DNA of 64,000 nucleotides from a virus (taxonomy: Duplodnaviria > Heunggongvirae > Uroviricota > Caudoviricetes). Below the pieces are notes generated by a model. That model ran no database searches, had not been told where the DNA came from, and saw only the letters and a program-made list of their open reading frames with translations. Position 1 is the first letter of the stretch, and the number at the start of each line of letters is the position of its first letter. The translations under genes were made by a program, and so were the position numbers. Below are positions 3,389 to 62,213 of the stretch, piece by piece. Where the stretch lies: the IMG/VR virus record IMGVR_UViG_3300046542_000361; one strand, written 5' to 3'.

Positions 3389-6300
3389 TTAGGCGGTGAC
3401 CGTCACCGTCATCACGGTGTCGACGATATCGAAGCCTCGTTTCTGGCGCACCTTGATGCTGAAGGTCTGGTTGACGGTGAGCACACCTGCTCCGCGGATC
3501 AGATCGCCGTTGCTGTTCATCGCCACGCTCGTGCCGGTGTAGGGATCGTAAGCGCGGGAGGTGTTCAGCAGCGACCTGGTCTCGCCAGTGATCTGATCCG
3601 GGAAGTTGACGACGACGCCGGTCTCGGCGACGGCCAGCGACAGGTTCACCGCGGTCGGCAGGGCCGGCAGGGGCGTTGCAAGCGCACCCGTCCGCAGCAC
3701 CTCGCTCGAGGTGGCATAGCTTGCATCGTAAGCCAGCGCCGTCACCGTCTTCGTAACGCCTGCCTCGGTGAAGGTCAGGTGGATACGATCGACACGGCTG
3801 ACCAGGCAGCCCTGATCGGCGTCAGTGATCGTGTAGCTCGACGCGGTCGCACCATCGATCCATTCACAGAGCCAGCCAAGATGCACACCCGTCCAGTTAG
3901 CCCACTGGACCGCAGGCTTGTGCCGGCGCCACTGGTAGGAGCGGGTGATGACCGCGGTCGGGAAGGCCGTAAGCACAGCCGCAGCGTCGAAGCCGCTGTC
4001 GGGGCCGGACAGAACCGCGCCAGACACACGGCTGCCGGTGATCTGCGCGCGTGCAACGACCTTGGGCGGCTCAGCGATGCTGCCGTTATAGGTGAAGTGG
4101 CTGTCCCAGATGAACGCCTGGATCTCACCACCGGCCGGCAGCGTCGTCAGCGTCCGGTCGAGCGGCTTGGTGACGTTGTGGAAGACGAAGCCACGGAAGC
4201 GGCCGGACGTCGGCCGGTCGACACGCACGCCGTTGGCGCACTTGATGACCGTCTCGTCATGCGCCACGATATCGACGCGGCCGGACTTGGTGCCGGTGTA
4301 GCCCGTCACCGAGATACCGGTGAACGACAGCGCCCGGTTCATGTCATACCAGGAATTGTCGTAGAGCTGATGGTTGTGCGATCCCGGCTGGTTGTCGTAG
4401 CCACCGATGCCGTAGCCGAACGAATAGCTGTTCTTGCGCGAGTAGCGGCTGACGTTACGGCAGAAGACCTGGTTGTCACCCTCGTCGGTGCCATGGACGA
4501 AGTTATTCCCATCCAGGATGTTATCGTGGATCAGGATGTAATCGTGCATGTTGGTGACGAGGCAGCCCTTGCCGGACGAGGTCTTGATCGAGTGCATGTC
4601 CAGGAAGGTGCCTCGCATGAGGTAGCCCTTCTGGTGCGGCCCAGGCGAGCCGTCACTGGCATTGCGGTCGGCACGGGTCTGGATCGTGTCGCCTTCAGCC
4701 GTCATAACCGGACGGAAAAGGCAGTCCTCGATCGTGATCTTATCATTGGTGTCGGAATAGAGCCCGTCGGACATGACCTGGAGCAGCGACACGCGCCGCA
4801 GCGTGATGCCGTTGTTCCTGTAGAAATAGATGCCGGACGCGTTTTCCGACGACCCGACGGGATTGAAGCCCGCCTGGTCGATCACAACGTCCTCAATGAC
4901 CCAGTTGGCGCCTTGACGAGCCATGATGGCGCGGTCACCCGAGGTGATGCGCATCTTGGAGATCTTGACGTTGCTGCGGCCGAGCGAGCCATCGTCGGTG
5001 TAATGGTCGATGGCGTAGCTGACGCTGGTCGAACCAATCGCGGTCAGGTCAGCGCCGAGGCCCTCGTAGTTGCGGTTGCTGCCGACCTTCAGCCGGGTGC
5101 CGAACACGCCGCTCAGAACCGCCGTGGCGCCCGACGGAATGGTGTCGGTGCCGACCAGTGTCTGCTTGGCGAACTCAGCGGTCAGGCCGTCATTGCCGTC
5201 GTTGCCGGTGGCGGGGTTCCAGAAGGCTGCCGCAGGCAGCACGACCTTGCCGGCCGTCGTGATCGAGGTCGAGTTGATGGCGTTGGTCGCGGTGACGCGG
5301 CAGGCGATCGTATGGCCTTCCTGAGCCGAGGTCGGCTTGTAGCTCATCAGCGTGGCGCCGGCGATGTCCACGCCGTTGTCGGTCCACTGAACCGTGTAGC
5401 CGGTCGGCTGGTTGGCCCAGGCGCCGAGATCGATCTGCCAGGTGGTGTTGGAGCGATCGGAAGACGCGACGATGGTCGGCGCCGTGGTATTGGCCGGTGT
5501 GACCGACTGGACAGCTGCTGCCGCAAGCGTGATCTCGTTCGAATAGGCGACGACGTCGTTGTTGCGGTTGGAGAAGGTGCGGGCGAGCCGAACCTTCTTC
5601 GTCGCCATGTCGGCGCGGGTCGTGAACACCGACAGCGTCTTCTGGAGATCCTGCACGTTGCCAATCGGCAGGGTGGCATAGGAGAGACCACCGCGAGCAT
5701 CCCACTGGTAGCTGTTTGCACCAGCGGCCGAGATATTGCGTGCCTGCTGCCGGAAGACCAGCCAGTCGCCATCGAGCCACTCGCCGAAGTCATGCGTGAG
5801 CGTCCAGTGCGAGGTGGCGTTGGTCGTAACGCCGAGCTCGCCGAGCTCGGTGCCGGCCGTCACGCCGACCTTCGGCATCTGCACTTCCTCAATCAGAACA
5901 CCACCACGGTATTTGGCCGCATACATCCTGATGCGGATCGAGGAGTTGGTGTTGAGGTGGCGCATGAACAGGTCGTAGACCTGCGCGCCCTCGTTCCCAC
6001 CGGCCGCGCCGATCTGGGTGGCGATATAGTCGTTCTCAGTAGCGCTCGCGGCGACGGAGAAGCTATAGGTGTTGGTGCCACCGTATGCGGCCGTCGAAAG
6101 CCCGACGCCGTGATGATTGTTGCCATCAGGATAGCCCGTCGGCGCAGCGACGGCGGTAGCGGCTGCCAGATAGCGTGTGAGCGGAGCCTTCAGCGCCGGG
6201 ATTTTCGCCTGGTCGATCTGCCACTCGTCGGACTTGATGATGGCATTTTCGCTTGCAGCGCCCGACGAGGTCACGGTCATGCGGCTACCAGGCTCGGTGC

Positions 6301-56919: not shown

Positions 56920-59442
56920 TCATTTCATGAGGATCTTCTTCAGTTCGCCCATCACGGCGCGCGGCAGGTCGTCGACCGACTGCAGGACAATGTGGTTGTC
57001 GTAGAAGCGCGCGACGGCGTCGGACTCGATGCCGATACCGACGAGATCGTAGCCCATGTTGGTCAGACGCTCGACCATGTGCTTCAGGTGCGCGTCGTCA
57101 TTTCTGGCGCCGGCAGGAAAGCCGTCGGACAGGACGATGATGACCTTGCGCTTCTCCTTGCGCCGCGCCAGGCGCATTGCTGCGTATTCGAGGGACTCGC
57201 CGTCGATATTGCCGCCCATATAAGGCTGATGCTTGCGCTGGTAAGCGAAGCGCTTCTTGACGTCGGCGTTAAGCCGCTCGTTGAAATCTTTGAAGATCGG
57301 CATGTAGATCGGCACGACGCGCGAGAAGGCAACGTTGGATTTGTTCGTCTCGGTCTGAAGGTCGTTGTTGAACTGCCTGATCCTATCTTCCGTCATGACG
57401 CTGCCTTGGCCCCACATCTGCGCGGTCGTAAAGCCCATGCATTCGGAGGGGATATTGCAGCGCTCGAGCACCGAGGCGAGCGCGTAAGAGGCCGACAGCG
57501 CCGTTGCCATTGGTCGCCCCTGCATCGAGCCGGAGCAGTCCGACAGCAGCGACACAGCCGTGTCTTTCGCGCGGATCTCTTCACGGCGCGAGAACACGCG
57601 CGAATCGCCGGCCGTCAGCCGATGCAGACCGGCGCTGTTCAAGCGGCCAGAGCGTTGACCGGCGACATTGAAGACGCGCGCCTGGGCGGCCATCATGCGC
57701 TCGATATCCTTCTGCATCACGCCAGTCAGCGCGCGGGTCTGCTCCTCGAGCTCGACGATATAGCGGCTTTTGAAATCTTCCGGCACCTCGAGCGGCTTGA
57801 TCACGTCGTATTCACGGGTGAAGATCGAATAATCCGAGGCCCTGCAGGCCGAGATCGCTTCCTTGACGATGATCTTGACCAGCGCCGACGAGATATCCTT
57901 TTCGTCGAGCGCGTCATCATCCATTGCGGCAAAGGGGTTCTGGTTCGGATCGTAGCCGATGGAAGCGACGTCGATCGCCGGCTCCTCATCTTCACTGGCC
58001 GAGCCGTCGTTTGCGTCTTCATCGTCGCCGGCGTCCTCGACAGCGACATTGCTCAGAGGCTCGCCAGACTCCTCATCGCCGTCTTCACCTTCTTCGGATT
58101 CACCATCGGGATCAGAGCCTCCAGCGTCGCTTTCGCTCTCGTCACCCTCAGCGTCCACATCTTCGTCGGCATCGTCAGCGGGCTCCCCGGAGCTGTTCTG
58201 CTCGGCGTCCTTGCCTTCATCAACCTCAGAAGCATCCGATGCTTCGTCGCCGTCAGCAGCAGAGCCGTCACCCCCTTCCTCGCTTCCGCCATCAGCATCA
58301 TCGGGCGCGCTGCCGGAACCATCTTGATCATCGGCATCGTCAGCGTCGTCCTCTTCGGCCGAGCCGGCGCCTTTGCTTTCCTCGGGCTCATTGCCAGCGT
58401 CGGCATCGTCCTTGTCGCCGGAACCGTCACCTGCGTCTTCGTCGGCCGTTTGATCACCATCCTGATCGTCGTCGCCGTCGTCTGCGCTTCCAGCGCCAGG
58501 TTCCTTGTCGCTTTCCTCATCGTCGGCTTTTTCTTCGCCTTCGCCGGAACCTTCGTTCTCACCGTCGCCGGCATCGTCTTCCTTCTCCTCTTCGTCGCTT
58601 TCGCCTTCGCCGCCCGACGCTTTGTCGTTGTCTTCGGTGTGCTCGCGCTCACCGTCGCCTTCACCGTCGCCGGTCTGCTGTTCGTCGGAATGATCCTTGT
58701 CGTCTTCGCCTTCGGACGGCTCCTGGTCGTCGGAGCCTTCGCCCTGGTCCTGATCGTCTTGCTCTTCAGGCTCGGGCGGCTGCGGCGGGGCGGGCGGCGG
58801 TGGCGGGTAGAGAATGGCTTCGACCTCGACCGCAATGTCGTAGGTCTGCTCGGTCGTCTGGAGCAACGGCATCTTGTCTTGCGACGCCTTTGAGAAGCGC
58901 TGCATGAATGGCTTGACCAGCTCGTGCTCCCAGTAATTGTTGTCGTCCATGAATTCCTGGAATTCGACGTGGCCGGCAAGCGCGCGCATCATGACGACGA
59001 TCAGATAGCCGAACTCTTCTTCCTTCGAGTGCGCCTTTGCGATCGCGGCCGCGGTGACGTTGCGCAGGAAGTATTCACGCAGCTTGGAAATGTTGCGCTT
59101 CGAGCCGGGGAACTCATTGCTCATCAGCCGCTCGATCATCGTATCTTCGATGATATTGTGCAGATTGTGCAGGCGCTTCGACTTGTCGCGCGCCTTGAAC
59201 AGGAAGTCGGTGAAGAGGACATGCGCGACTTCATGGTCGATGAAGCCCTGGATCGCGAAGACAAACTCCGGCTCGGCATTGTCGGGCAGGAGAGGAATGT
59301 TGACGCGCCAGGGCAGACCGGTGACGGGGTGCGGTTGAACATAGGCTTGCGTGCCCATTTGCGTCACGGTCAGGCCTTTGCCAGCAAGCATCGGCACGAT
59401 CTTCTTGATCGCTTCGCGCAGGATCACGATGTCTTTGTTCAT
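56920..59442 (-). CDS. CobT-like vWA-domain protein with a ~250-aa poly-acidic low-complexity linker and an N-terminal HExxH (HEVAH) motif
   Basis: C-terminal vWA MIDAS LLSDCSGSMQG. Extreme D/E/G/S-rich repeat region. 840 aa. Confidence 0.7.
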   Translation of the reverse strand: MNKDIVILREAIKKIVPMLAGKGLTVTQMGTQAYVQPHPVTGLPWRVNIPLLPDNAEPEFVFAIQGFIDHEVAHVLFTDFLFKARDKSKRLHNLHNIIEDTMIERLMSNEFPGSKRNISKLREYFLRNVTAAAIAKAHSKEEEFGYLIVVMMRALAGHVEFQEFMDDNNYWEHELVKPFMQRFSKASQDKMPLLQTTEQTYDIAVEVEAILYPPPPPAPPQPPEPEEQDDQDQGEGSDDQEPSEGEDDKDHSDEQQTGDGEGDGEREHTEDNDKASGGEGESDEEEKEDDAGDGENEGSGEGEEKADDEESDKEPGAGSADDGDDDQDGDQTADEDAGDGSGDKDDADAGNEPEESKGAGSAEEDDADDADDQDGSGSAPDDADGGSEEGGDGSAADGDEASDASEVDEGKDAEQNSSGEPADDADEDVDAEGDESESDAGGSDPDGESEEGEDGDEESGEPLSNVAVEDAGDDEDANDGSASEDEEPAIDVASIGYDPNQNPFAAMDDDALDEKDISSALVKIIVKEAISACRASDYSIFTREYDVIKPLEVPEDFKSRYIVELEEQTRALTGVMQKDIERMMAAQARVFNVAGQRSGRLNSAGLHRLTAGDSRVFSRREEIRAKDTAVSLLSDCSGSMQGRPMATALSASYALASVLERCNIPSECMGFTTAQMWGQGSVMTEDRIRQFNNDLQTETNKSNVAFSRVVPIYMPIFKDFNERLNADVKKRFAYQRKHQPYMGGNIDGESLEYAAMRLARRKEKRKVIIVLSDGFPAGARNDDAHLKHMVERLTNMGYDLVGIGIESDAVARFYDNHIVLQSVDDLPRAVMGELKKILMK

Positions 59443-59781: not shown

Positions 59782-59807
59782 GCGATCCGGGGCCTATTCC
59801 GGATCGC
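59782..59807 (-). terminator. rho-independent terminator GCGATCCGG-N8-CCGGATCGC followed by TTTTTCTTTCT on the minus strand
   Basis: Immediately after the regulator gene stop. Confidence 0.65.
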
Positions 59808-59833: not shown

Positions 59834-60238
59834 TTATTTCGCGAAGGCCTCGGTGACGGCAGCGCGCTGCCGGTCGTTGATCTTCGGATCGCTGTTGCCG
59901 GAAGCCTCGCGGACAATACCGAGGATTTCGACTTCGTTTTCAGTGCAGATGAATTCCAGCATCCTCGCGGTTGTCTCGTCCTCGGGCATGAACTGCTCGA
60001 GCGCCATCCGGAAGAGGAACATCGGATCCACGCCGATCGCACGGGCGAGCGGAACGACGCGGTCAAGCGGCAGCTTGGCGTCGCCCTTCTTGATCATCGT
60101 AACCATGTTCGACTGGGTCCAGCCGGCCGCCTGGGCGATTTCGCGGTGGGATCGGTTGACCACTTGGTCGATATGCTTGTCGAGAAAACGCGCAACCTTC
60201 GTGTTAGCGTAGGGGCGAACGTAAGTTGTAGTGGACAT
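59834..60238 (-). CDS. XRE-family helix-turn-helix transcriptional regulator (repressor-like)
   Basis: HTH …SHREIAQAAGWTQSNMVTMIKKG… Strong RBS AAGGAAGAAGGG. Upstream of it is the AT-rich region. Confidence 0.65.
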   Translation of the reverse strand: MSTTTYVRPYANTKVARFLDKHIDQVVNRSHREIAQAAGWTQSNMVTMIKKGDAKLPLDRVVPLARAIGVDPMFLFRMALEQFMPEDETTARMLEFICTENEVEILGIVREASGNSDPKINDRQRAAVTEAFAK

Positions 60239-60239
60239 T

Positions 60240-60600
60240 TAATAATAACCCTTCTTCCTTGACCTTTGTTTTACTTGTCACTAACAGCGTTTTCTTGTTT
60301 TCTGCTTTAGTGAATAGCGCATCGGTCTTGGGGTGCAACGATTTCTTTTGGCAAAATTTAGGGCAGTAAGTCAATACCGATTTACCCACAAAATGCAGTC
60401 AATTCCATTTTGCCGCACCGAAACGCAAGGAATCGCGGGGGAAACGGTGCGAAAAGAAATTTTTCAAGTGGTGATTTTTAGGGAGTTGACGCGAGTTCCA
60501 TAAGGTCTGTTATGCGACTTTTACGGGCTTGGCTGAAAACTGTAACCAAGGATAGATTTTTCTTGGGGTTTTATCCCACTACCGAATCGTGGCATCGCTG
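60240..60600. promoter_or_regulatory. AT-rich origin-like region with inverted repeats (GGCAAAAT…ATTTTGCC; CGCACCG…CGGTGCG) and a DnaA-box-like TTTACCCACA
   Basis: The lowest-GC stretch of the window, between the divergent regulator gene and the RHH / Rep genes. Confidence 0.45.
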
Positions 60601-60605
60601 GTAAT

Positions 60606-60842
60606 ATGACGCTGGTTCGAAGTGAGTCTCTAGCCATGAACGTTGAAACAAATGCTAACGCGCGTGCCGCAACCAAGTATCGGGAGAAGCGAGAGGCGGC
60701 CGGCGAGCGCCAGGTCACCGTTTGGCTTGCTCCCTGTGCGCAGTTGAAGGTCGACGAAATGATGTCAGCCGGTGGGTTTAAGAACCGGTCGGATTTGATC
60801 GCCCGCGCGATCCAGGAATTTGAATTGAACAAAGGAAACTAA
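60606..60842 (+). CDS. ribbon-helix-helix (CopG-like) DNA-binding protein
   Basis: …KYREKREAAGERQVTVWL… is typical of RHH plasmid/phage regulators. ATG at 60606 or 60636. Confidence 0.5.
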   Translation: MTLVRSESLAMNVETNANARAATKYREKREAAGERQVTVWLAPCAQLKVDEMMSAGGFKNRSDLIARAIQEFELNKGN

Positions 60843-61011
60843 ACTCGGCAAAGCAAAAGGCCCCAGGACGCCAATCCCAGAGCCTTTTTATTCTAAGCGA
60901 CTACGGATCGCCTCGTTTTGACACCTTGGTTATCCCGAATCATCGCTCGATTGTCAACATTTCTTTCGGGAGTGTTCGGCGAAGCTTTGCCCTTGGATAC
61001 AAGGGAAACCA

Positions 61012-62118
61012 ATGGGAGCGCAGTCATCCGGCTGGCGTGGATTAAGTCCGACACTTTCGGTCGGCCAAGATCTCGACAGCGCCGAAAAGCAAGACCTCTT
61101 CGACACGGCCAGAATGGCAGCTCGAGTCCTTGGGTTGCCGCCGACGGCGCGGTTCGTCCTCGACCAGCTCTGCGGCGTTTATAACGGCGAACCGATCGAA
61201 GGTCGAATCCTTGTCTGGCCGTCAAACGAGTTCATCGGCGAGCGCACTGGCATTCCGGAGCGGTCCATCAGGTTCGCGCTCGCCCGTCTGATCGAGGAGG
61301 GCGTGATCATCTCCAAGGATTCGCCGAACGGCAAGCGGTTTGCGCAGCGCTCGCCATCCGGCCAGATCATCCGTGCCTTCGGTTTCGACCTCTCCCCTCT
61401 CCTTGCGCGCCGGCCGGAGTTTGTCGCCAGGCTCGCGGCGCTCAAGGAATTGGAGCGTGAGCGGAGCGTTGCCTTCGACGAGCTGGTCATTCACCGGCGT
61501 TCGGCCCAGGAAGCTCTCAGGACGCTTGCAGAGGTTTACCCGAGCGTCGACATAGCTGATCTGACGGCGCGCGCCCTGGAGCTCATGCGCGTCACACCGC
61601 GCAGGTCCGGTGCGGGATCAGCCGACCCTTTCCGCGGGCAGTGGCAAGCACTCAGAGAAGAGGCAGAATCCAGATATTATACCGCCTCTGCCGGCAATAA
61701 CTGCCGTCACAAAGACAGCAACAAATATGCCCCTGACCAGTCTTGTGACAACGGCTCTGAAGATGTGCAGGAGGCGCCGGCGCAGCGGACGGATCTGCGC
61801 GACCTGAAGATGGCTTGCCTTGATGCGATGGAATTCATGGGTGAGATCCGGCACGACCTCGAGCTTGTCGCGGCTGCCGGGCGAATGCGGGGCTCGTTCG
61901 GCGTGTCAGTGTCGGCCTGGGAGGAGGCCAGGCGCGAAATCGGCCCGGTGCCGGCTGCCGCGACCCTGGTGTGGGTCATCCAGATGCAGGCGCGGCCAGC
62001 TGCCGGCGCCGAGCAGATCAAGAATTTCGGTGGTTACTTCCGGGCGATGTGCCGGTTGGTCCGCGACGGCCGCGTCAACCTCGATGAAGAGATCCAAAAG
62101 CTCAGGCGACGACAATAA
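61012..62118 (+). CDS. replication initiator-like protein with winged HTH (RepC / RP-C-like, putative)
   Basis: wHTH SNEFIGERTGIPERSIRFALARLIEEGVI. 368 aa. RBS AAGGGAAA. One of only three plus-strand genes. Confidence 0.45.
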   Translation: MGAQSSGWRGLSPTLSVGQDLDSAEKQDLFDTARMAARVLGLPPTARFVLDQLCGVYNGEPIEGRILVWPSNEFIGERTGIPERSIRFALARLIEEGVIISKDSPNGKRFAQRSPSGQIIRAFGFDLSPLLARRPEFVARLAALKELERERSVAFDELVIHRRSAQEALRTLAEVYPSVDIADLTARALELMRVTPRRSGAGSADPFRGQWQALREEAESRYYTASAGNNCRHKDSNKYAPDQSCDNGSEDVQEAPAQRTDLRDLKMACLDAMEFMGEIRHDLELVAAAGRMRGSFGVSVSAWEEARREIGPVPAAATLVWVIQMQARPAAGAEQIKNFGGYFRAMCRLVRDGRVNLDEEIQKLRRRQ

Positions 62119-62146
62119 AAAAAAGGGCAGCCCGCGAGAGCTGCCC
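62117..62146 (-). terminator. rho-independent terminator (GGGCAGC tctcgcg GCTGCCC followed by TTTTTTTT on the minus strand)
   Basis: Stops the minus-strand ligase operon before it collides with the plus-strand rep gene. Confidence 0.7.
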
Positions 62147-62213
62147 AGTTGGAAAGGAGACACACAATGACGGAACGGATGGAACGTCGCTGTGATTATA
62201 GAATAGTCAGTTT

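What the first reader, a model, noticed from the sequence alone, without database searches (positions are those of the whole stretch)
60240..62150. Plus-strand replication island: AT-rich origin-like region, RHH protein and RepC-like winged-HTH initiator, insulated by a strong terminator
Against a uniformly minus-strand, GC-rich background, 60240-60600 is AT-rich and carries inverted repeats (GGCAAAAT…ATTTTGCC, CGCACCG…CGGTGCG) and a DnaA-box-like TTTACCCACA. It is followed on the plus strand by a CopG-like RHH gene and a 368-aa winged-HTH protein reminiscent of plasmid RepC-type initiators.

The XRE-family regulator is transcribed divergently from the same region. A canonical terminator at 62117-62146 stops the converging ligase operon. 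Together this looks like the phage origin and initiator module, or a plasmid-like (phage-plasmid) replicon embedded in the phage.
Basis: partly seen in the sequence, partly recalled or inferred. Interest (0 to 1): 0.6.

Follow-up and report, generated by a model that had tools for sequence, protein, structure and literature searches.

The report
Plasmid-type RepC replicon in rhizobial phage

Summary
The described features are present. The 368-aa protein is a genuine RepC: Pfam RP-C and RP-C_C, and NCBIfam RepABC_RepC at 203 bits against a cutoff of 150. The window is an 86-88% relative of Rhizobium phage RHEph10. That phage's repC is already annotated, and its group (with pLM21S1) has been published as phage-plasmids. 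Syntenic copies sit on ~115-119 kb circular plasmids of Rhizobium, Sinorhizobium, Pararhizobium, Shinella and Methylobacterium.

The DnaA-like box occurs at chance frequency and is not conserved, and the inverted repeats are subgroup-specific. The spacer looks like a divergent promoter/operator region.

A ~80-nt block inside repC (61675-61755) is frozen at synonymous sites: 0.92 identity against 0.48 elsewhere, with 0 of 20,000 permutations reaching the observed peak. It encodes a predicted disordered linker, at about the place where repABC plasmids carry oriV.

It has a conserved promoter. Its terminator hairpin pairs in 100% of cells on the minus strand, and 8 of 10 pairs show compensatory changes. 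It is homologous to a canonical repB-repC spacer (E = 4e-7).

Verdict: a new member of a known kind, with a useful cis-element map. Interest is modest.

The parts
59834..60238 (-). XRE-like HTH regulator gene (134 aa), transcribed divergently from the rep operon. It is followed by its own minus-strand terminator at 59807..59782.
   Evidence: ORF. HTH hits are weak: HTH_3/HTH_31 in Pfam, PHROG transcriptional regulator at 6.5e-5. Orthologs are annotated HTH/XRE and are syntenic in all phage and phage-plasmid relatives examined, but absent next to the RHH-RepC pair of non-phage plasmid pRlX1. Terminator.
60239..60635 (.). It has short conserved islands: TAAGTCAA (60367-60374), TTCCATAA-N6-TTATG (60496-60514), and two GANTC sites (60584-60588, 60624-60628).
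   Evidence: Composition. Alignments. TAAGTCAA stays next to the HTH gene when the spacer is enlarged. The palindromic motif occurs once in each of 13/13 phage or phage-plasmid loci and in 0/5 other loci, and is unique in the window. A GANTC pair lies within about 70 nt upstream of the RHH ATG (near -50 and -15 in most) in every relative, including non-phage pRlX1.
60636..60842 (+). Ribbon-helix-helix gene (68 aa; alternative start 60606 gives 78 aa), first gene of the RHH-repC unit and probably its transcriptional autorepressor.
   Evidence: Pfam RHH_8 is weak (E 0.076). A profile of 10 orthologs hits the NikR RHH domain (E 0.007 and 0.018) and ParD antitoxins in the PDB, aligned over the beta-strand, helix A and NRSEA motif. 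Orthologs are annotated RHH/CopG. Start codon.
60848..60922 (-). Predicted antisense ctRNA gene (~75 nt, two stem-loops). SL1 is 60895-60913. The terminator hairpin SL2 is 60855-60888, with a U-tract running to 60848. It is complementary to the repC mRNA leader.
   Evidence: - The architecture is conserved in 16 related elements.
- The RNA folds as two hairpins, z -2.5.
- The basal 10 pairs of SL2 are 100% paired on the minus strand and 85% on the plus strand. 8 of 10 pairs show compensatory changes, and 0 of 500 shuffles reach the observed score.
- The only Rfam family found in a narrowed search is ctRNA_p42d, on this strand and at this site, but at 15.5 bits against a cutoff of 50.
- A covariance model built from this clade finds the canonical repB-repC spacer of a Microvirga repABC plasmid at 40.1 bits, E 4e-7, and nothing else in the window.
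- The 5' end is inferred from the promoter, not mapped.
60929..60957 (-). Promoter of the antisense RNA: -35 TTGACA (60957..60952), a 17-nt spacer containing a GANTC site (60937-60941), and -10 GATAAC (60934..60929).
   Evidence: The -35 hexamer TTGACA is identical in 10 of the 11 elements first aligned (TTGACT in Shinella), and a GATAAC-like -10 follows 17 nt later in each. The blocks stay recognisable down to 44% RepC identity and in the canonical repABC spacer, TTGACA-17-GATAAG. The GANTC next to the -10 is conserved in all but pRlX1.
60978..61011 (+). repC leader end: a near-invariant palindrome GGCGAAGCTTTGCC (60978-60991), then the hairpin CCCTTG-GATA-CAAGGG (60990-61005), which includes the Shine-Dalgarno AAGGGA.
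   Evidence: Alignments; fold. The Shine-Dalgarno hairpin is clear only in the close group, so the mode of ctRNA action (blocking translation or attenuating transcription) is not resolved.
61012..62118 (+). repC, replication initiator (368 aa): a winged-helix N-terminal domain (about aa 26-225), a disordered linker (about aa 226-261) and a helical C-terminal domain (aa 262-367).
   Evidence: Pfam RP-C 2.7e-38 and RP-C_C 3.6e-14. NCBIfam RepABC_RepC equivalog 202.9 bits, cutoff 150. PHROG 22671 'replication protein' 9e-135. The start codon is conserved. AlphaFold model with pLDDT 83.6. Structural neighbours are winged-helix proteins (DnaD N-terminal domain, MarR, TFE), with weak scores.
61675..61755 (.). 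Candidate oriV core embedded in repC. The constrained zone extends to about 61651-61780. It is the AT-richest part of the gene and contains the palindrome TGCCGGCA.
   Evidence: - Synonymous-codon identity is 0.84-0.97 here against a gene mean of 0.58. Between lineages it is 0.92 against 0.48. 0 of 20,000 column permutations reach the observed peak.
- GC is 0.47-0.53, against 0.6-0.78 on either side.
- The block encodes the only internal low-confidence, structure-free stretch of RepC.
- The nucleotide block is found only in the 12 plasmids of this RepC subclade and decays with RepC distance.
- It is positionally comparable to the p42d oriV region (PMC3155836).
- Origin function is inferred, not shown.
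62117..62146 (-). Intrinsic terminator for the converging minus-strand ligase operon (stem 62125-62146, T8 tract 62117-62124). It overlaps the repC stop codon and keeps antisense read-through out of repC.
   Evidence: 9-bp stem, 7 G-C pairs, T8. A terminator is conserved at this position on the same strand in RHEph10, Pararhizobium p5 and Shinella, with different sequences in the last two. There is no T-run on the plus strand.

Best explanation
The region is a 'repC-family' plasmid replicon carried by a ~115-kb Rhizobium phage-plasmid of the RHEph10/pLM21S1 group. Proposed working:

1. RepC, a winged-helix initiator of the repABC/repC family, is made from an RHH-repC transcription unit.
2. The RHH protein probably autorepresses that unit.
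3. A ~75-nt antisense ctRNA, transcribed from the minus strand of the RHH-repC spacer, pairs with the repC leader and lowers RepC synthesis. This sets copy number and incompatibility, as RepE/ctRNA does in repABC plasmids.
4. RepC then acts, probably in cis, on an origin that lies inside its own coding sequence (core about 61675-61755).
5. The AT-rich spacer 60239-60635 is the divergent promoter/operator region for the XRE-like regulator and the RHH-repC unit. It includes CcrM (GANTC) sites and a palindrome that may be the XRE operator. It is not the origin.
6. A minus-strand terminator after repC shields the module from the converging ligase operon.

The module most likely maintains the phage as a low-copy plasmid prophage, together with a ParA-like system encoded elsewhere. 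The phage's own DnaB/primase/Pol III replisome handles bulk lytic replication.

Shown here: RepC family membership; conservation and strand-specific covariation of the antisense hairpin and its promoter; synonymous-site freezing of the internal block; synteny on circular plasmids.

Inferred: origin function of the block; the RHH and XRE roles; ctRNA mode of action; the division of labour between plasmid and lytic replication.
For: - RepC membership.
- Identity of the element: 86-88% nucleotide identity to RHEph10-group phages with annotated repC.
- Phage-plasmid status: the syntenic module lies on 115-119 kb circular non-mobilizable plasmids of five genera. Four of them (Pararhizobium, Shinella and the two Methylobacterium plasmids) were confirmed to carry the phage capsid gene at 63-92% identity. 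31 RepC-subclade clusters have longest contigs of 100-121 kb. The relative has a ParA-like gene and no annotated integrase. Published as phage-plasmids in PMC4447125 and PMC7969092.
- ctRNA. Literature on repABC and repC-family antisense RNAs: PMC10194956, PMC11514494.
- Internal origin. PMC3155836 shows oriV within repC, with no iterons or DnaA boxes, and RepC acting in cis.
- GANTC pattern: the densest cluster in the window is the rep module, and the sites in both promoters are conserved. This matches the repABC pattern described in PMC11514494.
- Terminator.
Against: - No experiment was done here.
- The internal block is only modestly AT-rich (~50% AT), while the upstream spacer is much more AT-rich.
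- Frames +1 and -2 are open across the block in all nine relatives tested, so an overlapping ORF is not strictly excluded.
- Rfam's ctRNA_p42d model scores only 15.5 bits against a cutoff of 50. It also misses the canonical Microvirga spacer, so the model seems narrow.
- The RHH assignment rests on weak profile scores.
- pRlX6 shows repC split into two CDS yet exists as a plasmid.
- RHEph10-type phages were isolated as plaque formers. Lysogeny of this particular phage has not been shown.
Confidence: 0.75

Rival explanations
1. One reading: the AT-rich spacer 60240-60600, with its inverted repeats and DnaA-like box, is the replication origin, and RepC acts on it from the adjacent gene.
For: It is the most AT-rich and least stable DNA in the neighbourhood, with GC 0.35-0.47. 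It lies next to the initiator gene, as in many iteron plasmids and lambdoid phages. It has several conserved islands. The composite palindrome folds slightly better than chance.
Against: The DnaA-like box occurs at chance frequency and is not conserved. There are no iterons. The palindrome is missing or refolded in relatives. The spacer tolerates insertions of 0.4-0.8 kb in X66, pRlX6 and M. oryzae. Its conserved islands travel separately with the HTH gene or the RHH gene, like promoters and operators. In tested repABC replicons the repC ORF alone is sufficient for replication (PMC3155836).
Confidence: 0.1
2. The frozen block inside repC is not an origin but some other overlapping element: a small ORF in frame +1 or -2, an mRNA structure, or an internal antisense promoter. 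The origin is then elsewhere or undefined.
For: Alternative frames are open across the block in all nine relatives tested. A minus-strand promoter-like site, TTGTCA-16-CATATT, lies inside it at 61751..61724.
Against: Constraint covers all three codon positions over only ~80-130 nt, shorter than the open alternative frames. The -35-like hexamer is weaker (TTGTTA) in most relatives. The position roughly matches the experimentally defined p42d oriV region (PMC3155836). The block co-varies with the RepC clade, as a cognate binding site would.
Confidence: 0.08
3. The module is the phage's lytic origin and initiator: RepC fires at infection and hands over to the phage-encoded DnaB-like helicase, primase and Pol III. 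It would not be mainly a plasmid-maintenance replicon.
For: It sits inside the early/replication gene block, beside the ligase, primase, helicase and Pol III genes. RHEph10-group phages were isolated as plaque-forming phages (records). No other initiator is annotated in the relative.
Against: Copy-number-limiting antisense RNA control and a cis-acting RepC are hallmarks of low-copy plasmid maintenance (PMC3155836, PMC10194956). Close relatives persist as circular plasmids in cultured isolates. A ParA-like partition gene is present. T4-like recombination functions (a RecA-like recombinase, UvsW) could drive lytic replication. The two roles are not mutually exclusive.
Confidence: 0.2

Closest known systems
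RHEph10 / pLM21S1 group of rhizobial phage-plasmids (Dziewit et al. 2015, PMC4447125; noted in Pfeifer et al. 2021, PMC7969092)
   Same: 86-88% nucleotide identity to RHEph10-group phages over the region, and the same gene order: CobT-like, small ORF, HTH, then RHH and RepC on the other strand, then the converging ligase. The RepC-like replication system and the plasmid-like prophage nature are already described for this group.
   Different: This window is a distinct member: there is no identical record, and the closest RepC cluster is 98% identical. I found no description, in the papers I could search, of the antisense RNA, the intragenic frozen block, the GANTC sites or the candidate XRE operator. 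RHEph10's deposited repC start is annotated too far downstream.
repC-family replicons of rhizobial plasmids: solo repC plus an upstream antisense RNA, e.g. pRmeGR4a and pSmeLPU88b repC2 (PMC10194956)
   Same: repC is not in an operon with repA/repB. An antisense RNA is encoded just upstream of repC. RepC is of the PRK13824/RP-C type.
   Different: Here a small RHH gene precedes repC in the same unit (also in pRlX1). The replicon is the only plasmid-type replicon of a phage genome, whereas PMC10194956 reports that repC-family modules are always found on plasmids that also carry a repABC cluster and are unstable alone. RepC is shorter here (368 aa against about 400).
repABC replicons (p42d, pTi, A. 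tumefaciens Ch2)
   Same: RepC passes the NCBIfam RepABC_RepC equivalog cutoff. The antisense RNA has the same architecture and shares motifs with a canonical repB-repC spacer. The putative origin is inside repC (PMC3155836). GANTC sites lie in the operon promoter and the antisense promoter (PMC11514494).
   Different: There is no repA or repB upstream. A ParA-like gene with a small partner lies ~47 kb away in the relative. The RepC nucleotide block is clade-specific. The Rfam ctRNA_p42d threshold is not met.
pMV158 CopG + RNAII control of repB, and R1 CopB + CopA (from my own knowledge, not tested here)
   Same: The same logic of dual control: a small RHH-type transcriptional repressor co-transcribed with the initiator, plus an antisense RNA acting on the initiator's leader.
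   Different: These are unrelated initiators and replication modes (rolling-circle for pMV158). This is an analogy only; the repressor role of the RHH protein here is inferred.
N15 RepA and P1 RepA/oriR replicons of classical phage-plasmids
   Same: A plasmid-type replicon maintains a prophage extrachromosomally. PMC3155836 cites N15 RepA as the only other initiator known to function only in cis.
   Different: The initiator families are unrelated. The backbone here is related to the Cupriavidus and Acinetobacter phage-plasmids and to Yersinia pFra, which carry other genes in the equivalent slot.

Membership tests
RepC initiator family (Pfam RP-C / RP-C_C; NCBIfam NF040974 RepABC_RepC) | Both RP-C N-terminal and C-terminal domains above the curated cutoffs | tested here: met
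   PF03428 131.9 bits (cutoff 24.4) and PF11800 53.3 bits (cutoff 32.6). NF040974 202.9 bits (cutoff 150).
RepC initiator family | Winged-helix DNA-binding N-terminal domain | tested here: met
   AlphaFold model, pLDDT 83.6, with helix-turn-helix at 72-95 plus a beta-hairpin wing at 100-113. Structural neighbours are DnaD-N, MarR and TFE winged helices, with weak E-values. Pfam HTH_36 1.1e-4.
repABC operon replicon | repA and repB (ParA/ParB-type) immediately upstream of repC, in one operon | tested here: not met
   The upstream gene is a 68-aa RHH protein. In the relative, the ParA-like gene is ~47 kb away.
repABC / repC-family replicon | Antisense ctRNA gene upstream of repC with its own promoter and an intrinsic terminator | tested here: met
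   A conserved TTGAC(A/T)-17-GATAAC-like promoter, two hairpins and a U-tract in 16 elements. Minus-strand-specific covariation. The clade model detects a canonical repB-repC spacer at E 4e-7. Transcription itself was not tested.
Rfam RF00489 ctRNA_p42d | Score at or above the gathering threshold (50 bits) | tested here: not met
   15.5 bits, E 1.1, a full-length match on the correct strand and site. The model also fails on the canonical repABC locus L016, so it appears narrow.
repABC / repC-family replicon | oriV located inside the repC coding sequence, at or near an A+T-richer region | tested here: inconclusive
   Indirect support only: a block frozen at synonymous sites at 61675-61755, coinciding with the GC minimum of the gene and with a disordered linker. 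Origin activity was not tested.
repABC / repC-family replicon | RepC acts only in cis | not testable with these tools
   Known for p42d and pTi (PMC3155836 and Pinto et al. 2011 as cited there). It requires complementation experiments.
Phage-plasmid | A complete phage genome that also carries plasmid replication and partition genes and is found as an autonomous circular replicon in bacterial isolates | tested here: met
   Met for close relatives:
- Syntenic 115-119 kb circular plasmids.
- Capsid homologs (63-92% identity) on four of them: Pararhizobium, Shinella and the two Methylobacterium plasmids.
- In the relative RHph_Y2_11: structural genes, a ParA-like gene and no annotated integrase.

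Not shown for the phage of this window itself.
Ribbon-helix-helix (CopG/Arc/MetJ) regulators | N-terminal beta-strand followed by two helices, with the G-x-x-N-R-S-E type turn | tested here: inconclusive
   The top PDB profile hits are the NikR RHH domain (E 0.007 and 0.018) and ParD. Pfam RHH_8 is below its cutoff (13.6 against 25.4 bits). Orthologs are annotated RHH by PGAP.
DnaA-dependent origin | Conserved DnaA boxes in excess of chance | tested here: not met
   8 matches in the window against 5.0 +/- 2.1 expected. The site at 60382-60390 is not conserved.

The most novel reading that the evidence does not exclude
A plasmid initiator has been wired into a viral circuit. The phage's XRE-like regulator would gate the RHH-ctRNA-repC cassette through the phage-plasmid-specific palindrome TTCCATAA-N6-TTAYG. 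RepC, firing at an origin hidden in the codons of its own disordered linker, would load the phage-encoded DnaB-like helicase, primase and Pol III rather than the host replisome. One intragenic origin would then serve both plasmid-prophage maintenance and entry into lytic replication. Host CcrM methylation of the conserved GANTC sites would time it to the cell cycle.
Probability: 0.2. Interest if true: 0.55.

Novelty: new member of a known kind. Interest (0 to 1): 0.3.

Why it matters
The result moves the likely origin from the AT-rich spacer to inside repC. It also adds a previously unannotated antisense regulator. Both change how one would clone, delete or engineer this replicon.

It shows that the repC-family replicon can be the sole plasmid replicon of a widespread ~105-121 kb phage-plasmid lineage across Hyphomicrobiales. 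PMC10194956 describes this replicon type as always accompanied by a repABC cluster and as unstable on its own.

The frozen block gives a precise, testable candidate for a RepC recognition sequence. RepC has no solved structure, and I know of no defined consensus binding site for it. The block is useful for designing rhizobial vectors and for predicting incompatibility between phage-plasmids and symbiotic plasmids.

None of this overturns current understanding.

Tried and rejected
- Rfam at 4 kb scale found no ctRNA. Only a narrowed search showed a sub-threshold ctRNA_p42d hit. Rfam at gathering threshold on 13 related loci found only tRNAs.
- The DnaA box as origin evidence was rejected: chance frequency, not conserved.
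- Cumulative GC skew on the full Y2_11 genome is monotonic, dominated by transcription direction, and uninformative about origin position.
- The genome-contig scan with the single RepC found no confirmed relatives, and the viral-contig scan found only RHEph10 itself; the peptide patterns were probably too specific.
- A PDB sequence search with the RepC profile found no meaningful hit.
- MAFFT alignment of the hairpins put one sequence's arms out of register, and Shinella was misaligned in the first anchored alignment. I replaced these with a stem-anchored alignment with the apical part removed. The anchors were chosen from minus-strand folds. This favours the minus strand for 'cells paired', but the G-U versus C-A asymmetry is intrinsic to the sequences.
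- Sequestration of the Shine-Dalgarno sequence in the leader is clear only in the close group, and the whole leader folds no better than shuffles (z -0.4). The ctRNA mechanism is therefore left open.
- An overlapping ORF as the cause of the frozen block is not excluded, because the alternative frames are open.
- The Santamaria et al. 2014 paper on RHEph10 could not be read.
Full report
WHAT IS THERE

The window around 59.8-62.2 kb contains these features:
- A minus-strand HTH gene (59834-60238) with its own terminator.
- A 397-nt AT-rich spacer.
- A small plus-strand ORF (60606/60636-60842).
- A 169-nt spacer.
- A 368-aa plus-strand ORF (61012-62118).
- A strong hairpin with a T8 tract that reads as a terminator on the minus strand (stem 62125-62146).

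GC falls to 0.35-0.47 in 60220-60600, against 0.594 for the whole window.

IDENTITY OF THE PROTEINS

- The 368-aa protein hits Pfam RP-C (2.7e-38) and RP-C_C (3.6e-14). It passes the NCBIfam RepABC_RepC equivalog cutoff (202.9 against 150 bits) and hits PHROG 22671 'replication protein' (9e-135).
- An AlphaFold model built on 55 homologs (pLDDT 83.6) shows an N-terminal winged helix, a helical C-terminal domain and one internal disordered stretch at about aa 226-261.
- Its structural neighbours are winged-helix proteins (DnaD N-terminal domain, MarR, TFE), with weak scores. No solved homolog exists by sequence.
- The small protein is RHH-like. A 10-ortholog profile hits the NikR RHH domain and ParD, and orthologs are annotated RHH or CopG.
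- Its real start is most likely 60636.

WHAT GENOME THIS IS

The region is 86-88% identical to Rhizobium phages RHEph10, RHph_Y2_11 and others of 115-120 kb, in which the gene is already annotated repC.

The literature already describes the group:
- Dziewit et al. 2015 (PMC4447125) describe pLM21S1, a 117.5-kb plasmid-like prophage of Sinorhizobium, as related to RHEph10 and sharing a RepC-like replication system and partition genes.
- Pfeifer et al. 2021 (PMC7969092) call pLM21S1 a known phage-plasmid that is homologous to RHEph10.

I extended this picture:
- RepC tblastn finds the same syntenic module on circular, non-mobilizable plasmids of 115-119 kb in Rhizobium beringeri, Sinorhizobium, Pararhizobium, Shinella and Methylobacterium.
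- The Pararhizobium, Shinella and two Methylobacterium plasmids also carry the phage capsid gene at 63-92% identity.
- 31 RepC-subclade clusters have longest contigs of 100-121 kb.
- The best-annotated relative encodes a full replisome (DnaB-like helicase, primase, Pol III alpha and epsilon, SSB, ligases), a ParA-like gene with a small partner, and no annotated integrase.
- Capsid and CobT homology tie the backbone to a much larger set of plasmids (Cupriavidus, Acinetobacter, Klebsiella, Escherichia, Yersinia). In Acinetobacter pWM99c-2 and Yersinia pFra the equivalent slot holds recombinase, ParA or cargo genes instead of RepC.
- An RHH-RepC pair also occurs in a non-phage context on the 318-kb conjugative Rhizobium plasmid pRlX1; the related repC of the 257-kb plasmid pRL9b2 has no annotated RHH gene upstream.

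The RHH-repC spacer is far more conserved than expected.

On the minus strand every relative has the following:
- TTGAC(A/T), a 17-nt spacer, and a GATAAC-like hexamer.
- Two hairpins.
- A U-tract.

The window's predicted ~75-nt RNA folds into two stem-loops with z = -2.5.

Evidence for the strand of function:
- On a stem-anchored alignment of ten lineages, the basal ten pairs of the terminator hairpin are 100% paired on the minus strand. Eight pairs show compensatory changes, and 0 of 500 shuffles reach the observed score.
- The same columns read on the plus strand are only 85% paired. One pair is broken in 8 of 10 sequences, because G-U becomes C-A.

Evidence for homology with known ctRNAs:
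- A narrowed Rfam search returns a single family, ctRNA_p42d, on this strand and at this site, but at 15.5 bits against a 50-bit cutoff. That model also misses a canonical repABC locus.
- The canonical repB-repC spacer of Microvirga terrae pR24_2 shows the same promoter, a TTGCCG loop and an identical CCTTTTGCTTTGCC tail.
- A covariance model trained only on the phage clade finds that spacer at 40.1 bits, E = 4e-7, on the antisense strand. It finds nothing else in the 64-kb window.

This matches published descriptions. repABC plasmids encode a 55-59 nt ctRNA between repB and repC, and 'repC family' replicons (solo repC) have an analogous antisense regulator and incompatibility determinant (PMC10194956, PMC11514494).

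WHERE THE ORIGIN PROBABLY IS

In p42d, pSymA and the A. tumefaciens linear chromosome, the repC ORF alone replicates. oriV lies in or near an A+T-richer stretch of repC (nt 450-850; silent mutations at 658-822 abolish replication). There are no iterons or DnaA boxes, and RepC works only in cis (PMC3155836).

In this window the evidence points to the same place:
- The GC minimum of repC is at 61630-61780.
- In a codon alignment of ten lineages (44-90% protein identity), synonymous-codon identity is 0.84-0.97 across 61651-61780, against 0.58 for the gene. Between lineages it is 0.92 against 0.48. 0 of 20,000 column permutations reach the observed peak.
- The frozen core (61675-61755; aa 222-248) lies between the two Pfam domains and covers the end of helix 205-225 and the first part of the only internal unstructured stretch of the model (aa 226-261; pLDDT <50 for 235-257). 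That is the kind of segment that normally evolves fastest.
- The nucleotide block is found only in the 12 plasmids of this RepC subclade, and it decays with RepC distance, as a cognate site would.
- By the NCBIfam profile coordinates, its position is roughly equivalent to the p42d oriV region. This mapping is approximate.

Caveats: the block is only ~50% AT, and alternative frames are open across it.

WHAT THE AT-RICH SPACER IS

- The DnaA-like box occurs at chance frequency and is not conserved.
- The inverted repeats are subgroup-specific and only marginally stable.
- The spacer tolerates large insertions.
- TAAGTCAA (a TTGACT hexamer on the minus strand) stays with the HTH gene.
- TTCCATAA-N6-TTAYG sits about 130-150 nt upstream of the RHH ATG in the rhizobial elements and about 340-350 nt upstream in the two Methylobacterium plasmids. 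It occurs once in each of 13/13 phage or phage-plasmid loci and in 0/5 other loci, and it is unique in the window. It is a candidate operator of the adjacent XRE-like regulator.
- A pair of GANTC sites within about 70 nt upstream of the RHH ATG (near -50 and -15 in most) is present in every relative, including the non-phage pRlX1.
- GANTC is 2-5 times depleted across the window, yet its densest cluster is the rep module, with a random-placement p of about 0.05. One site also flanks the -10 of the ctRNA promoter. This mirrors the GANTC pattern reported for repABC loci and their CcrM/GcrA control (PMC11514494).

TERMINATOR

The hairpin after repC has its T-tract on the minus strand only. A terminator is conserved at that position in distant relatives with different sequences.

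VERDICT

The initiator homology holds and the phage-plasmid reading is right, but both are already known for this group. The origin assignment is probably wrong. The best-supported model is a repC-family replicon made of an RHH repressor, an antisense ctRNA, a cis-acting RepC and an intragenic oriV, flanked by a regulatory spacer and an insulating terminator. Function remains inferred. This is a new member of a known kind, with a refined cis-element map, and interest is modest (0.3).

Noticed in passing
whole window (78 sites); cluster at 60430-61670: GANTC (CcrM methylation motif) is 2-5 times under-represented across the 64-kb window: 78 observed against 158-386 expected, depending on the background model. 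Its densest cluster (8 sites in 1.3 kb) is the rep module.
   Followed up: partly
window 56920-59442 (-), especially about 58000-58800: The CobT-like VWA protein (840 aa) carries a ~270-aa insert rich in Asp, Glu, Gly and Ser. The insert produces strong local GC and AT skew.
   Followed up: no
window 60496-60514: The palindromic motif TTCCATAA-N6-TTAYG occurs exactly once in each of 13 phage or phage-plasmid relatives, always upstream of the RHH gene. It is absent from the non-phage RepC plasmids and from the gammaproteobacterial relatives. It may be the operator of the adjacent XRE-like regulator.
   Followed up: partly
L006 (R. beringeri pRlX6) 3998-5144: repC is annotated as two overlapping CDS, with an apparent frameshift just 3' of the frozen block, although the 119-kb element is recorded as a circular plasmid. 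This is either an assembly error or a hint that maintenance does not need intact RepC.
   Followed up: no
L004 (X66) 2282-2635; L006 3066-3416; L015 2376-3551: Some relatives carry an extra ~117-aa ORF, or about 0.8 kb of extra DNA, inserted in the HTH-RHH spacer. The spacer is therefore tolerant of insertions.
   Followed up: no
L020 (Acinetobacter pWM99c-2), L021 (Yersinia pestis pFra): The capsid and the CobT-CobS-Pol III alpha backbone are shared with Acinetobacter plasmid pWM99c-2 and Yersinia pFra, and capsid/CobT homologs occur on many Klebsiella and E. coli plasmids. In pWM99c-2 and pFra the slot next to CobT holds XerD/Soj, or an integrase with the caf1 genes, instead of RepC.
   Followed up: partly
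window 62110-62180 (-): A weak Rfam hit to suhB/mmgR sRNA (21.4 bits, cutoff 41) overlaps the terminator. It is most likely just terminator similarity.
   Followed up: no
window 61724-61751 (-): A sigma-70-like promoter match on the minus strand (TTGTCA-16-CATATT) lies inside the frozen repC block. The -35-like hexamer is weaker in most relatives.
   Followed up: partly
L001 (RHEph10) 4116 vs 4215: The deposited RHEph10 repC CDS starts 99 nt (33 codons) downstream of the start codon that is conserved in all relatives. This is probably a start-site misannotation.
   Followed up: yes
window 60957-60975 (+): A small hairpin (ACATTTC...GGGAGTGT) just upstream of the ctRNA -35 shows three pairs with compensatory changes among relatives. 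Its role is unknown.
   Followed up: no
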